This document shows, piece after piece, positions 10,018 through 44,137 of a DNA stretch of 64,000 nt. A program made the position numbers and the translations under genes. Location: contig OX597817.1 of the NCBI GenBank assembly GCA_951406725.2, forward strand, positions 55,924,001-55,988,000. Direction: 5' to 3'. Position 1 is the stretch's first letter. Each line of letters begins with the position of its first letter. This DNA comes from Octopus vulgaris. Lineage: Eukaryota. The notes beneath the pieces were generated by a model. The model searched no databases. It saw nothing but the letters and a program-made list of their open reading frames with translations, and was not told the origin of the DNA.

Positions 10018-10382
10018 AGCTGGCAGAAACGTTAGCACGCCAGGCGAAATGCTTTGTGGTATTTCGTCCGCCGCTACGTTCCGAGTTCAAATTCCGCCGA
10101 GGTCGACTTTGCCTTTCATTTTTTCGGGGTTGATTAAATGAGTACCAGTTACGCACTGGGGTCGATGTAATCGACTTAATACCTTTGTCTGTCCTTGTTT
10201 GTCCGCTCTGTGTTTAGCCCCTTGTGGGTAGTAAAGAAATAGGTATCTCGTCTGTCTTTACGTTCTGAGTTCAAATTCTGTCGAGGTCGATTATGCCTTT
10301 CATTCTTTCAAGATCGATAAATTAAGTACCAGTTACGTACTGGGGGCCATCTTATCGACTGCCCCCTCCCCAAAAATTTCGG
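10018..10382 (+). mobile_element. SINE family A, composite form
   Basis: Same two-block layout as 42709-43119. Confidence 0.8.
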
Positions 10383-10399
10383 ATAACTCGGTTCACCAA

Positions 10400-11815
10400 A
10401 GAACTTAAAATGGAGGATCCCTGAAATGTTTAGAAATTTCCACTTCGCCGTTAAAAGTGTTGTGTATGGAGAATGTGAATCGGTTTGCTCTGTTCTGTTT
10501 TGGAAATCCCTAGCATGTCAAATTTTTTACGCAGAACTCTTGTTACATAGTCCAGGGCCCCGATGTTAAAAGGTCCAAACGAAAATCAATAATCTGGATA
10601 CAAGAGAAATAGGTTTTTCGTTAGTCTCCCATAGACGTTTCTCCCTTTTCCCTAACTTTTGACGAGATATTCCCTTCCACCTGTCAGCTGGTTTCTACAA
10701 CATTGCATGACTTTTGCTCCCTGTCAAATACAACAATATCTGCTCTGTTGTGTTTATATCGTCTTGTTGGTTTTACGGCAATGTTCTACAATTATTTTTT
10801 ATTATTATTTTTAAAGGTATGGACACTTCCTGGTCGTAGTGTGCTTTTAGTATGGCTGTCATGACAGTTCTTCTTGCGTTTAACTTTGTCGTTGGTCTCA
10901 GTGACGATGTCATATACGGGAAAGTAGGATTTTGCCGACATTTTTAGACAGCTGATAATTCATGCGATATCTTCCATACTGCTATCGTACAATCGATATT
11001 TTCAATCATAGATTTAGAGACACTTTTTACTCTCCTGTTGACCATGGTATTTACTATCTATCCCCTGTTCTTGGATAACAAAAGCGTAATCTATTTCTTT
11101 TTTCTTTACTACTCACAAGGGGCTAAACACAGAGAGGACAAACAAGGACAGTCAGACGAATTAAGTCGATTACATCGACCCCAGTGCATAACTGGTGCTT
11201 AATTTATCGATCCCGAAAGGATGAAAGGCAAAGTCGATCTCGGCGGAATTTGAACTCAGAACGTAGCGGCAGACGAAATACCGCAGAGCATTTCGCCTGG
11301 CGTGCTAACGTTTCTGCCAGCTCGCCACCTACACAAAAGCGTAATCTGATAGGAGAGATGTGACGCATGAATCGCCGGCCCAAGAGAGTATACTATTCCT
11401 ATCAATATTGTTGGTATTCTCAAACTGGCGGGATATGTACCCATGCATATCTTTCTGCTAGTATGATGAGCGTTTCTCAATCTAGTCAGCCTTGGTTTAC
11501 GTGGAACTGCAGTTCTCTTTGAAAACCTCTTAAAGAGTTCTTCGTTCGATCTAATTATGTTATTAACATCACTGCTGAATATACGCTCGGTGGACTCATT
11601 TCCCTCTTTAATCTTCAGTTTGCGTTGTCGAGGTGTCACGATGCGGCACTTAAAAGAACTGGTTTATACTTCTATCTCCATCCCTTCATTAAACATAGAT
11701 CTTATCAGGGTCACTGTTTACTTGGAATTTATCAGTGGTTGCAGTATCTTCCTCGTCCCTATGTCGAAGTTCCCAATTTCATCATGTACCCAGTCCAGTG
11801 TCCTAAATGTTGACA
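10400..11815 (-). mobile_element. Decayed RLE-type non-LTR retrotransposon (R4/Dong-like) 3' region
   Basis: Minus-strand fragments LDWVHDEIGNFDIGTRKIL, NSDPDKIY, AFVIQEQ, KYRLYDSSMEDIA*IISC (eroded zinc knuckle), HNRADIVVFDREQK (PD..D endonuclease region), LYPDY, IGALDYV. Interrupted by a SINE. Confidence 0.7.
11093..11332 (-). mobile_element. tRNA-derived SINE family A with 15-bp TSD
   Basis: Head GGCGAGCTGGCAGAAACGTTAG, B-box GAGTTCAAATTCC; TSD ACAAAAGCGTAATCT at 11078-11092 and 11333-11347. Confidence 0.9.
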
Positions 11816-11837
11816 CTATATTTGTCTGTCTGTCTGT

Positions 11838-11899
<62 letters not shown>

Positions 11900-12298
11900 G
11901 TCTGTCTATCTATCTTTCTATGTAAGTATCTATCTATCAATTCATCTGTCTATCTATTTATGTATATTTGTATGTATATATATATATATATACCCATACG
12001 TGTGTACACACACAGACATTCACGGACACAGATACGCATATAGTCTTATATAAGACTAGCAATATATTTTGAAGGGAGGGTGAAGCGATTGCATCGACCC
12101 CAATGCTCAACTGGTACTTACTTTATCGGACCCTAAAGGATGAAGGGGAAAAAATGGACCCCGGTGACATTTGAACTCCGAACGCAGAGAGCCGGAAAAA
12201 AATGCAATTAAGCATTATTTTCTAACGTGCTAACGATATTCTCAGCTCACCGCATAGTACTATGATGAGTGTGTGTGTGTGTGTGAGTGTGTGTGTAT

Positions 12299-12404
<106 letters not shown>

Positions 12405-12889
12405 AAACACAAAGGAAGCGAGGGAGATGATGGCGTCACTTAGTTTTTAAAGACACGAGTACAGCGAAATGTAAGCATTAATTGCGTCCGATTATTTAAT
12501 CGTTAACTAGTCAAACTATGAATAACTACAAAGGTAATTTACTTCTCGTTTCAACGAAGTCAGTTTAACCACAAAAATATGATTAATATAATGGATATAT
12601 TGACAGTATTAATAAAGTAAGCAAATTAATGCTACTTTTAAGATATATTTGAAAAAGAAAACTGCTTTAATTTTAATATTCTTCATCATACAACGTTATT
12701 AAGACTTGCTGTTAATATCTACTTGATTACATTCATTCCAAGATCTTTTGTGTTTGGCAAACTTAAAAAGATTTTCATCAAAGTCGCCATCGAGAATTGT
12801 CCAATTACATAAGCTGAACTGGTCTTTCCGTTCTGTTAGCTGCAGAATCTTGATACTCAGTAACTGCTGAGCGCCATTTTGTGAATATC

Positions 12890-13385
12890 TGTTTCTTTAT
12901 TACCCACAAGGGGCCAAACATAGAGGGGACAAACAAGGACAGACAGACGGATTAAGTCGATTACATCGACCCCAGTGCGTGGCTGGTACTTAATTTATCG
13001 ACCCCGAAAGGATGAAAGGCAAAGTCGACCTCGGTGGAATTTGAACTCACAACGTAACGGCGGACGAAATACCGCAGAGCATTTCGCCCGGCGTGCTAAT
13101 ATTTCTGCCAGCTCGCCGCCTTATTTGAACTCACAATGTAACGGCGGATGAAATACCTATTTCTTTACTACTCACAAGGGGCTAAACACAAAGGGGACAA
13201 ACAAGGACAGACATAGGTATTAAGTCGATTACATCGACCCCAGTGCGTAACTGGTACTTAATTTATCGACCCCGAAAGGATGAAAGGCAAAATCGACCAA
13301 GGCGGAATTTGAACGAACGTAACGGCAGACGAAATACGGCGCATTTCGACCGGCGTGCTAACGATTCAGCCAGCTCACCGCCCTC
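12890..13385 (-). mobile_element. Tandem dimer of SINE family A within one 16-bp TSD
   Basis: Two family A copies; CCATTTTGTGAATATC at 12874-12889 and 13386-13401. Confidence 0.85.
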
Positions 13386-21600: not shown

Positions 21601-21960
21601 GTTGATAGAAGAGTTAATGTAACACAATGGACGACATAATTTCTGGTATTAGTGCTAACTCTTTGATCTGAGTTCAAATCCAGCTGAAATCAAATTTGCT
21701 TTTTGTGTTGACGAGGTCGATAAAATAAAGTACCAGTCATATATTTGGGTCGATGTAATTGACTAAAGCTTCCACCAAACGCGAGACCGTAGGTCCATAT
21801 TAGAAGCCAATGAACATGATAACAATACCATCAGCCCTATCCAAATACCAACAGCATCACAATGGTAAGGAGATGCGAAACCCAAGTTATGAGGACAGGG
21901 CAGAATAATGATCCATAAAGGCCCTAATCACTTGAAATATTTTGGTACCTCCATATATAC

Positions 21961-22343
21961 TCTTTTACTTGTTTCAGTCATTTGACTGCAGCTATGCTGG
22001 AGCACCGCCTTCAATCGAGCAAATCGACCCCAGAACTTATTCTTTGTAAGCCTAGTACTTATTCTATCGGTCTCTCTTGCCGAACCGCTAAGTGACGGGG
22101 ACGTAAACACACCAGCATCAGTTGTCAAGCGATGTTGCGGGAACAAACACAGACACACGGGCATATTATATATGCATATGTACGACGGGCTTCTTTTAGT
22201 TTTCGTCCACCAAATCCACTCACATGGCTTTGGTCGGCCCGAGGCTATAGTAGAAGACACTTGCTCAAGGTACCACGCAGTGGGAATGAACCCGGAACCA
22301 TGTGGTTGGTAAGCAAGCTACTTACCTACACAGCCACTCCTGC
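21961..22343 (-). mobile_element. SINE family B, full length
   Basis: Reverse-complement match to 43692-44137. Confidence 0.85.
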
Positions 22344-27844: not shown

Positions 27845-27882
<38 letters not shown>

Positions 27883-28002
27883 CACGATCAAGGAACAGCC
27901 ATAATAGGCCATTCACCCACTAGAAATAACAGCCAAAGCCTCAACCGCAAAATAACATCAATTCCGTAAACAGGAGAAAATTAAAAAAACGTTTACCCTG
28001 CA

Positions 28003-28110
28003 ATTTCTTATACGATGCACCGTTTCGTCTACTGTTTAATGGTAAAACTAACCTGATTAAATTAAATCAAGCCAATCTTCCATAGGCCCTTAGATTCATC
28101 AGTAAGAAAT
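28003..28110 (-). ncRNA. Type I hammerhead ribozyme (mirror copy)
   Basis: Reverse complement of 28185-28292. Confidence 0.8.
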
Positions 28111-28184
28111 AGCCATATCGGAACAGATATTTTCACGAGGCATTTCACAGAATGCCTCGTGAAAATATCTGTTCCGATATGGCT

Positions 28185-28292
28185 ATTTCTTACTGATGAA
28201 TCTAAGGGCCTATGGAAGATTGGCTTGATTTAATTTAATCAGGTTAGTTTTACCATTAAACAGTAGACGAAACGGTGCATCGTATAAGAAAT
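28185..28292 (+). ncRNA. Type I hammerhead ribozyme
   Basis: ATTTCTTA-CTGATGA-ATCTA...TAGAC-GAAA-CGGTGCATCG-TA^TAAGAAAT: 8-bp stem I, near-palindromic stem III, GUA site; A-C mismatch at the base of stem II. Confidence 0.8.
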
Positions 28293-28510
28293 TGCAGGGT
28301 AAACGTTTTTTTAATTTTCTCCTGTTTACGGAATTGATGTTATTTTGCGGTTGAGGCTTTTGTTATTTCTAGTGGGTGAATGGCCTATTATGGCTGTTCC
28401 TTGATCGTGATGTTGAACTTATAAATGGTCTATGACTATTTAATTTTTTCCCGCTAGGCCGCTGGTGGCAAAAAAATTCTACAAAATTTTTTGCCACCCT
28501 ATATTGATTA

Positions 28511-28600
<90 letters not shown>

Positions 28601-33897: not shown

Positions 33898-35840
<1,943 letters not shown>

Positions 35841-41590: not shown

Positions 41591-42708
41591 GGTCACCTTG
41601 TGATGAAATCGCTAAATCAAAGTTTTATTATGACCCGTGCTACGTATTTTTTTTTTGTCTGCACTAAACTTACGTGTCACGAGTTCGAATCTCTTTCACA
41701 TATAAGGACTTCACAATATATATTTTCCGAGATGAACAGATCAAGTCAACCTGTTTGAAACGACAAACAAGGAATTAGCTGTCTTCAGCAGACCTTGCTA
41801 CTTGGCGAGCATTTGTCCCTGGAATGCCCTCGGTCCTAGAGATCCTAAAACTTGTTATGGGCGTTTAAATTCATCTAAAAATTGAAAGAAACTATTATGA
41901 GTCTAATTAGACGCGAGTATAGTTCTGTGGTTAAGAAAAATCACTTTATTACGACGTAGTTTCGGGTTTAACTGTTTGTCAGATTAGGCAAGTGTCTTTT
42001 AATACGGCTCCGGGACGATTAATGTCTTACGCGTGAATTTGGCAGACAGGAACTGTGCAGAAGCCTGTTGTGTATGTGTTCGTGTATGTATACATTTGTG
42101 TGTCTGTGTGTCTTTGAACCTGCGTTTGTCTTCCATTGCTTGACAAATTGAGTTGGTTTATTTAAGTACCCACTAATTTAGCGGTACAGCAAAAGGGAAC
42201 GATAGAATAAGTTTAAGACTTAAAATGCAATCAAGTACTAGGATGGATTTATTTAACTGAAACACTTTGTGGTGGAGCCCCAGCATGACCGCAGTTCAAG
42301 GACTGCTACAAGTAAACTTTGTCTGAATTTCTTTCCCCCTCTCTTTCTTTCTCTCTCCCTCCTCTCTCTTTCTCTCGCTCTCTCTTTCACTCTTCCATAA
42401 AACATCCTATCTATGAGCCTATGTTACTAACCAAACACGCTAGATGGCGTAGTTCCATCGATTTTCTATATTTGGTTCGATCCATTCCTATGCAATTCAG
42501 CCTCGACATCAAAATCTCCTAGCCCATCCTGGGCCCATTCGTCTGGTACTGATCAACAAATGACGTAGATGCACTCAAGTATATCAACCTCAGTATGTTG
42601 TAACTTTCTGCCCTTGCTGAGAACCATTGATATTATTTCGGGCATCGAACCTACAGAATCTCTAGAACGTCAAAGAACAAGCAGTGCGGTCTTTTTTCAT
42701 TCTGCTCT

Positions 42709-43119
42709 AGGGCGGCGAGCTTGCAGAAACGTTAGCACGCCGGGCGAAATGCGTAGCCGTATTTCGTCTGCCGTTACGTTTCTGAGTTCAAATTCCGCCG
42801 AGGTCGACTTTGCCTTTCATCCTTTCGGGGTCGATTAAATAAGTACCAGTTACGCACTGGGATCGATGTAATCGACTTAATCCATTTGTCTGTCCTTGTT
42901 TGTCTCCTCTGTATTTAGCTCCTTGTGGGCAGTAAAGAAATAGATATTTCATCTGCCGCTACGTTCTGAGTTCAAATTTTGCCGAGGTCGACTTTGCCTT
43001 TTAACGTTTCGGAGTCGATAAAATAAGTACCAGTTACGCACTGGGGTCTATGTAATCGACTAGCTCCTTTCCTCCAAAAATTTTCAAGGCCTTATGCCTA
43101 GAGTAGAAATGATTATTTG
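42709..43119 (+). mobile_element. SINE family A, composite form, 10-bp TSD
   Basis: B-box/central block present twice; TSD ATTCTGCTCT at 42699-42708 and 43120-43129. Confidence 0.85.
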
Positions 43120-43691: not shown

Positions 43692-43859
43692 GGGCCCGGT
43701 ACGGAGTGGCCGTGTGATAAGTAGCTTATTTACCAACCACATGGTTCCGGGTTCAGTCCCACTGCGTGGCAACCTTGGGCAAGTGTCTTCTACTATAGCC
43801 TCGGGTCGACCAAAGCCTTGTGAGTAGATTTGGTAGACGGAAACTGAAAGAAGCCCGTC

Positions 43860-43906
<47 letters not shown>

Positions 43907-44137
43907 TGTGTTGTGTTTGTGTGTCTGTGTTAGTCCCCCTAGCATTGCTTGACAACCGATGCTGGTGTGTTTATGTACCCGTTACTTAGCGGTTCAGGCA
44001 AAAGAGACCGATAGAATAAGTACTGGGCATACAAACGAATAAGTCCCGTGGTCGAGTTGCTCGATTAAAGGCGGTGCTCCAGCATGGCCGCAGTCAAATG
44101 ACTGAAACAAGTAAAAGAGTAAAAAGAGTAAAGAGAG
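43692..44137 (+). mobile_element. tRNA-derived SINE family B, full length, with internal (TA)n/(TG)n
   Basis: A-box TGGCCGTGTGATAA, B-box GGTTCAGTCCC, tail GGCGGTGCTCCAGCATGGCCGCAGTCAAATGACTGAAACAAGTAAAAGAG. Confidence 0.85.

What the first reader, a model, noticed from the sequence alone, without database searches (positions are those of the whole stretch)
27881..28515. Second family, same architecture: near-perfect ~530-bp palindrome with outward-facing hammerheads
Seen: ~263-bp arms with a 6-nt loop, one hammerhead per arm, one arm ~100 bp longer and ending in the conserved 3' motif, and (TA)n on both sides. The sequence is otherwise unlike the 534-bp unit. Both arms share the A-C mismatch at the base of stem II, so it predates the duplication or was homogenised. 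Inference: fold-back insertion is the normal outcome of this mobilisation pathway, not a one-off.
Basis: partly seen in the sequence, partly recalled or inferred. Interest (0 to 1): 0.7.

Follow-up and report, generated by a model that had tools for sequence, protein, structure and literature searches.

The report
Retrozyme palindrome with Penelope insertion footprint
This 630-base mirror-image stretch is one young copy of a common non-coding jumping repeat with a predicted self-cutting RNA motif; about four in five sampled copies are such mirror images with one long and one short end, a known mark of Penelope-type retrotransposons that here likely comes from copying the RNA twice rather than from DNA folding back.

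Summary
The arms (27881-28144, 28151-28411) match at 261 of 261 aligned bases plus one 3-nt gap. Each arm holds a type I hammerhead, the right arm has a 101-nt extension, and (TA)n lies on both sides. It is a truncated copy of a 489-bp tandem retrozyme family with at least 681 insertions. Inversion is indeed normal: 81 of 100 sampled loci. 72 of those 81 inverted arms end about 100 nt short of the other arm, and none ends at the long end. Literal fold-back is not the general cause: in 19 of 73 loci neither arm can be a copy of the other. Two separately primed cDNAs, joined at their ends, fit better (inferred). The A-C mismatch marks a small young subfamily; most copies have A-U. Inverted arms, tails and (TA)n targets are published Penelope features. 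The enzyme partner was not identified; cleavage, RNA circles and read support for this junction are untested or inconclusive. The scan noted the same architecture before on other DNA of this genome.

The parts
27861..27880 (.). left (TA)n target remnant, preceded by (CA)n
27881..28146 (-). short arm: family unit positions m122-m388; its outer end (27881) is the family's fixed short end
   Evidence: (L001)
28003..28110 (-). type I hammerhead motif of the short arm; predicted cut between 28011 and 28010
   Evidence: cut site from the hammerhead consensus (own knowledge)
28145..28150 (.). head-to-head junction (the '6-nt loop'); lies in the loop of a small natural hairpin of the unit
   Evidence: hairpin in the fold; L016 has an independent junction (m113/m113) in the same hairpin
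28147..28512 (+). long arm: family unit positions m119-m489, 5'-truncated, with a 3-nt deletion after 28360
28185..28292 (+). type I hammerhead motif of the long arm: core from 28193, A10.1 28200, C11.1 28268, predicted cut after 28284; stem I 8 bp, stem II span 69 nt, short stem III
28412..28512 (+). 101-nt tail present on one arm only; holds a hairpin (28464-28498) between two short motifs that resemble the 534-bp unit's end
28514..28597 (.). right (TA)n target

Best explanation
The palindrome is one young, 5'-truncated insertion of a non-coding 489-bp hammerhead repeat family (a non-LTR retrozyme), likely pasted into a (TA)n tract by a Penelope-like retrotransposon enzyme that likely primed two separate cDNAs, one from each cut strand. 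Shown: a tandem 489-bp unit, hundreds of dispersed (TA)n-flanked copies, mostly inverted, with one arm ending at m489 and the other near m388, and both arms from one subfamily. Inferred: the two ends are two fixed start sites of reverse transcription on the RNA. Each cDNA runs toward the RNA's 5' end, or round a circle or multimer, which gives tandem units. The two free cDNA ends are then joined by microhomology or with templated insertions. Here both cDNAs stopped at nearly the same place, which gives a near-perfect palindrome. This copy holds no full unit and would not release a monomer; a read-through transcript would form a 261-bp hairpin.
For: Family and target: 489-bp tandem unit; 681 exact long-end+(TA)n matches and 416 short-end matches, reversed-pattern controls 0; (TA)n within 25 nt of the far end in 90 of 99 loci. 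End rule: 81 of 100 long-end loci are inverted; the inverted arm ends at m382-393 in 72 of 81 and never at m489. In 30 short-end hits, 25 show an inverted partner within 1.5 kb; 20 of these end at m487-489, 3 run off the locus, 2 are rearranged, and none ends at the short end (9 of the 30 loci overlap the first sample). Not self-copying: neither arm can contain the other in 19 of 73 loci; the short arm has at least 30 positions missing from the long arm in 23 of 81. Same source: median arm-arm divergence is 0.33% versus 5.8% to a typical other locus (66 loci). Junctions: 37 of 81 are blunt or overlap; several others carry templated insertions. Enzyme class: the genome holds long open RT+GIY-YIG frames (781 and 574 aa; the RVT_1 score is just under the Pfam cut-off) with a CxxxxCxxC linker. 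These elements end in (TA)n with two alternative ends about 33-37 nt apart, and L089 is itself a long/short inverted insertion. PMC11167929 shows in vitro that a Penelope enzyme cuts and extends both strands and that the tail is the stretch between two internal start sites. Ribozyme under selection: 0 of 11 core positions vary between subfamilies versus 28% of the unit (P about 0.02); the free position 7 takes all four bases; stem II shows an A-U to G-C change in 16 of 75 loci.
Against: No autonomous partner was identified: the unit has no similarity to the flanks of the 85 Penelope-type loci examined, apart from one family fragment lying nearby. The 101-nt tail is three times the published 30-40 nt. 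PMC11167929 saw no difference in start site between strands, which does not by itself predict a strict long/short pairing. One-molecule origin is not shown: arms are closer to each other than to the nearest other locus in only 23 of 66, and later homogenisation was not excluded. 54 of 73 loci remain length-compatible with fold-back, and near-symmetric junctions are in excess (8 versus 2.5 expected, P=0.004), so this particular locus could be a fold-back. Cleavage and circular RNA are untested.
Confidence: 0.7

Rival explanations
1. Self-priming fold-back: one cDNA folds on itself and copies itself to make the second arm. This is the first reader's reading, and self-priming is the interpretation given in PMC3846280.
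For: Excess of near-symmetric junctions (8 of 81 within 5 nt, 14 within 10 nt; 2.5 and 4.5 expected). This junction and that of L016 fall in a natural hairpin of the unit. Arms are nearly identical. 54 of 73 loci are length-compatible.
Against: 19 of 73 loci cannot arise this way. It gives no reason for the copy to stop at m388 against (TA)n in 72 of 81 loci. In 10 of 11 loci with both 5' ends at m256-285 the short arm reaches further 5' than the long arm, the opposite of a long-arm fold-back. Here the short arm keeps 3 nt that the long arm lacks (weak, the deletion may be later).
Confidence: 0.15
2. The repeat is mobilised by another reverse transcriptase, for example a LINE with twin priming, and not by a Penelope-like enzyme.
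For: No partner with a matching end was found. LINE-like reading frames occur in the genome.
Against: No poly(A) tail at the ends read. The arms overlap in sequence, unlike L1 twin-priming inversions (own knowledge). Tail, (TA)n bias, inverted arm and type I hammerhead are Penelope features (PMC8557442, PMC3846280, PMC4209133).
Confidence: 0.07
3. The inversion arose after insertion: two separate insertions into one (TA)n tract, or local rearrangement followed by gene conversion.
For: (TA)n tracts attract repeated insertions (L189 and L190 lie 1 kb apart). Inverted arms can homogenise (own knowledge).
Against: Always head-to-head, no (TA)n at most junctions, strict long/short pairing, and the same subfamily on both arms in 65 of 66 loci.
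Confidence: 0.05
4. Assembly artefact from a chimeric mirror read.
For: No listed contig of four public runs bridges this junction (18 of 131 pieces shown; inconclusive).
Against: The arms differ by an indel, the flanks are not mirrored, and both ends obey the family rule. Contigs of run X2 show many other joints between the two orientations of the family (table 5).
Confidence: 0.03

Closest known systems
Metazoan non-LTR retrozymes (Cervera and de la Pena 2020, PMC7229834; Li, Clavereau and Pollet 2026, bioRxiv 10.64898/2026.07.22.740005)
   Same: Non-coding tandem repeat of low GC (36%) with one type I hammerhead per unit, dispersed in many copies, in a genome with Penelope-like elements; these are proposed there to be non-autonomous Penelope derivatives.
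   Different: The 489-bp unit is above the 150-450 bp of the 2020 paper but within the 51-972 bp of the 2026 preprint. The hammerhead has a 69-nt stem II and A-U, G-U or A-C instead of G10.1-C11.1. The word 'inverted' does not occur in the 2020 main text and occurs once in the preprint. Expression and circles are not shown here.
EN+ Penelope-like element insertions (Neptune, Hydra, Naiad; Arkhipova 2013 PMC3846280; Craig 2021 PMC8557442)
   Same: Partial tandems, an inverted 5'-truncated copy head-to-head, a tail on one end only, (TA)n targets, hammerhead in the repeat.
   Different: No reading frame; tail of 101 nt rather than 30-40 nt; many loci do not fit the self-priming interpretation of the 2013 paper.
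Poseidon element of Anolis in vitro (Frangieh 2024, PMC11167929)
   Same: Two internal reverse-transcription start sites define the tail; both target strands are cut and extended; AT-rich targets.
   Different: There the start site did not differ by strand and hammerhead cleavage was not needed or seen at RNA ends. Here the two ends are paired strictly one long, one short, and 5' ends pile up just downstream of the predicted cut.

Membership tests
non-LTR retrozyme | type I hammerhead in each repeat unit | tested here: met
   motif scan; about 192 of 198 whole-ribozyme units have an intact core and cleavage triplet; Rfam gave no hit
non-LTR retrozyme | short tandem repeats, dimers to multimers, at many loci | tested here: met
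   489-bp period, up to 9 units seen in one arm; this window copy itself has less than one unit per arm
non-LTR retrozyme | non-coding, GC below 50% | tested here: met
   GC 36%; stop-to-stop frames lying wholly within the element are at most 55 aa, and longer ones run in from the microsatellites
non-LTR retrozyme | self-cleavage and expression as linear and circular RNA | not testable with these tools
   only contigs were available; the circular fold is stable (z -5.1, 60 shuffles) but that is a prediction
non-LTR retrozyme | absence of primer-binding site and polypurine tract | not tested
   no dedicated search was run
Penelope-type insertion footprint | inverted 5'-truncated copy, head-to-head | tested here: met
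   81 of 100 loci
Penelope-type insertion footprint | tail on one end only (30-40 nt in print) | tested here: met
   present in 72 of 81 inverted loci, but about 101 nt long
Penelope-type insertion footprint | (TA)n target bias | tested here: met
   90 of 99 far ends; the near end is (TA)n by ascertainment
non-autonomous derivative of a named Penelope family | sequence similarity to the pLTR of an autonomous element | tested here: inconclusive
   none found in 85 loci of Neptune-like or Hydra-like type; 150 of 6136 GIY-YIG candidates were scored
autonomous Penelope-like element | RT + GIY-YIG reading frame | tested here: not met
   Penelope protein fragments near some family loci are separate neighbours, none in the window

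The most novel reading that the evidence does not exclude
These insertions record an asymmetric two-enzyme reaction: one Penelope complex starts two cDNAs 101 nt apart on a single retrozyme RNA, one per target strand. Circular templates give the tandem arms, and hammerhead-cut linear templates give the class whose two arms both stop just 3' of the cut site. That would replace self-priming as the origin of Penelope inverted repeats and be genomic evidence that hammerhead cleavage shapes insertions in vivo.
Probability: 0.3. Interest if true: 0.65.

Novelty: new member of a known kind. Interest (0 to 1): 0.4.

Why it matters
The palindrome itself is an ordinary young copy of a known kind of element. 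The family is useful because the way Penelope-like elements make tandem and inverted insertions is still called undefined (PMC8557442), and the link between retrozymes and Penelope enzymes rests mainly on co-occurrence and pLTR similarity (Li 2026). Here hundreds of young non-coding insertions carry the Penelope footprint, obey a near-strict long/short rule and often contradict self-priming, which gives a specific model to test in an existing in vitro system. The natural A-U, G-U and A-C variants at 10.1-11.1 give a ready panel for asking whether cleavage matters for spread.

Tried and rejected
Rfam: no hammerhead hit; the miRNA and 3'UTR hits at low score are hairpin artefacts of the palindrome. 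Read support: no RNA holder listed; no listed contig bridges this junction (18 of 131 pieces shown; no verdict). Partner search: GIY-YIG scan, 35 fetched regions, Hydra-like endonuclease search (copies 51-78% identical, mostly with stops) and loose end patterns gave no element sharing the unit's sequence. The many TAG stops are mostly the natural end of the frame, not editing. Recurrent junctions at m280/m262-270 as one re-amplified palindromic master: rejected, the junction sequences differ between loci. A-C mismatch abolishing the pile-up of 5' ends: not supported in a small sample, since young loci L214, L015 and L038 have 5' ends at m266-274. Literature searches that found no description of inverted retrozyme insertions or of twin priming in Penelope elements, judged from listings except where a paper was opened. 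The library lacks most subscription journals, and no supplements were read.

Full report
Observation. The palindrome is real in the assembly. The arms 27881-28144 and 28151-28411 match at 261 of 261 aligned bases, with one 3-nt deletion in the right arm. The right arm continues 101 nt to 28512, and (TA)n tracts lie on both sides. A descriptor scan of the whole window found type I hammerheads only here (one per arm, pointing outward) and in the 534-bp array. The minimum-energy fold of the motif region forms stem I and a long stem II hairpin (z -3.6) but not the catalytic junction. Rfam does not detect the motif.

The family. The window lies in a 2.8-Gb genome; an earlier scan note calls it octopus, which I did not test. 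The arm belongs to a family with a 489-bp tandem unit, 36% GC and no coding frame. I number the unit m1-m489, with the hammerhead core at m166 and the predicted cut after m257. This copy is m119-489 on the plus strand joined head-to-head to m122-388 on the minus strand, so the '6-nt loop' is just the junction. Exact patterns found 681 long ends and 416 short ends abutting (TA)n; these are lower bounds.

Is inversion the normal outcome? I took the first 100 of the 681 long-end hits, in contig order and not chosen by architecture. 81 have an inverted arm and 19 do not, and two of those 19 show short inverted stubs. The inverted arm ends at m382-393 in 72 of 81 and never at m489. The reciprocal sample of 30 short-end hits (9 shared with the first sample) shows an inverted partner within 1.5 kb in 25. 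Of these, 20 end at m487-489, 3 run off the locus and 2 are rearranged. The young subfamily of this copy has 37 exact marker hits at 18 loci, of which 14 are inverted. The 534-bp array of this window also has one long and one short end. The two families' tails share two short motifs around a hairpin (16 of 18 and 13 of 15 matches; individually not significant). Both samples were ascertained by a (TA)n-abutting end, so decayed or endless copies are under-counted.

Is it fold-back? Not in general. After dropping 8 rearranged or open loci, 44 of 73 allow the short arm to be a copy of the long arm, 10 allow the reverse, and 19 allow neither. In 23 of 81 the short arm carries at least 30 unit positions that the long arm lacks. 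Symmetric junctions like this one are a minority, though above chance (8 of 81 within 5 nt, 2.5 expected, P=0.004), so this single locus cannot decide between models. Both arms come from one subfamily: median divergence is 0.33% between arms versus 5.8% to a typical locus (66 loci with at least 80 shared positions). They beat the nearest other locus in only 23 of 66, so a single RNA molecule is not shown. Junctions are blunt or overlapping in 37 of 81; several others have templated insertions, which I recall as a mark of polymerase-theta end joining. At least four junction calls near m122 are blurred by a divergent subfamily segment.

The ribozyme. Across 75 loci none of 11 core positions varies at subfamily level, against 28% of the unit (P about 0.02). 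Position 7 takes all four bases, the cut triplet is GUA or GUC, and one stem II pair changes A-U to G-C in 16 loci. This points to selection for function but is not a cleavage test. The 10.1-11.1 pair is A-U in 52, A-C in 15, G-U in 7, U-U in 1 and never G-C, although G10.1-C11.1 is called highly conserved in PMC4209133 (passage). The A-C mismatch is thus mostly inherited from the young source subfamily; the 75 loci are enriched for that subfamily because I added the top hits.

A pile-up of 5' ends. In 10 of 81 inverted loci both arms stop within m258-285, just 3' of the predicted cut (Fisher P=3e-5). For that count I dropped 6 short arms and 3 direct loci as rearranged, and hand-corrected 4 loci. 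The right edge of the window was chosen after seeing the data, one of six control windows also reached P=0.03 in the other direction, and the region holds a self-complementary A/T run and the base of stem I. A stall or joining hotspot is therefore not excluded. This is a lead, not a result.

The enzyme. The genome holds long open RT + GIY-YIG frames with a Neptune-type cysteine linker (clade assigned from the motif in PMC8557442, no tree built). Their ends abut (TA)n at two alternative positions about 33-37 nt apart, and L089 is an inverted insertion with one long and one short end. None of 85 Penelope-type loci shares sequence with the unit, apart from one neighbouring family fragment, so the partner is unidentified.

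Comparison with print. PMC3846280 (passages) describes the inverted pLTR, the tail on one of the inverted repeats, and interprets junction palindromes as self-priming. PMC8557442 (passages and section 11) gives the same architecture and the (TA)n bias for Naiad, Neptune and Hydra. PMC11167929 (parts 1-2 of 4) shows that both strands are cut and extended and that the tail lies between two internal start sites. PMC7229834 (passages and Discussion) defines non-LTR retrozymes and proposes Penelope mobilisation via circles. The 2026 preprint (parts 1-3 of 5) links them to pLTRs. PMC2837043 was seen as one passage. Supplements were not read and may show inverted retrozyme copies. My searches found no account of a strict long/short rule or of two-cDNA joining for these elements.

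Earlier scan notes report the same architecture and a similar reading on other DNA of this genome, one probably for this family. My reading was recorded before I opened them. They are unchecked notes and were used as leads only.

Verdict. A real, young copy of a new non-LTR retrozyme family with a Penelope insertion footprint. Novelty: new member of a known kind; interest 0.4, carried by the family-level test of mechanism rather than by this locus.

Noticed in passing
window 55887-58779: The 534-bp hammerhead array is itself a head-to-head insertion with a long end on the left and a short end about 125 nt earlier on the right; its tail shares two short motifs and a hairpin layout with the 489-bp family. 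One tail motif has 3248 matches in the genome.
   Followed up: partly
L084 2626-4968 and L081-L088: A young Neptune-like Penelope family with many intact 781-aa stop-to-stop frames and an upstream second open frame; two alternative ends about 37 nt apart; my descriptor found no canonical hammerhead in its 3' region.
   Followed up: partly
L089 2795-5979: Second Neptune-like family as an inverted long/short insertion; its hammerhead-like motif has C in place of U at core position 4 in three of four copies examined.
   Followed up: partly
L012 flanks (G000:C12:84.82 Mb): A 10-nt direct repeat lies in both flanks of a young family insertion, a possible target duplication outside a (TA)n tract.
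   Followed up: no
window 10018-13384, 35160-35427, 42708-42977, 61336-61574; also 21958-22342, 43703-44121, 54288-54658: Two dispersed repeat families of about 250-400 bp at 82-91% identity, SINE-like.
   Followed up: no
L227 2977-3417 and L260-L289: Many old, decayed GIY-YIG copies without the CCHH motif, resembling the Hydra clade.
   Followed up: partly
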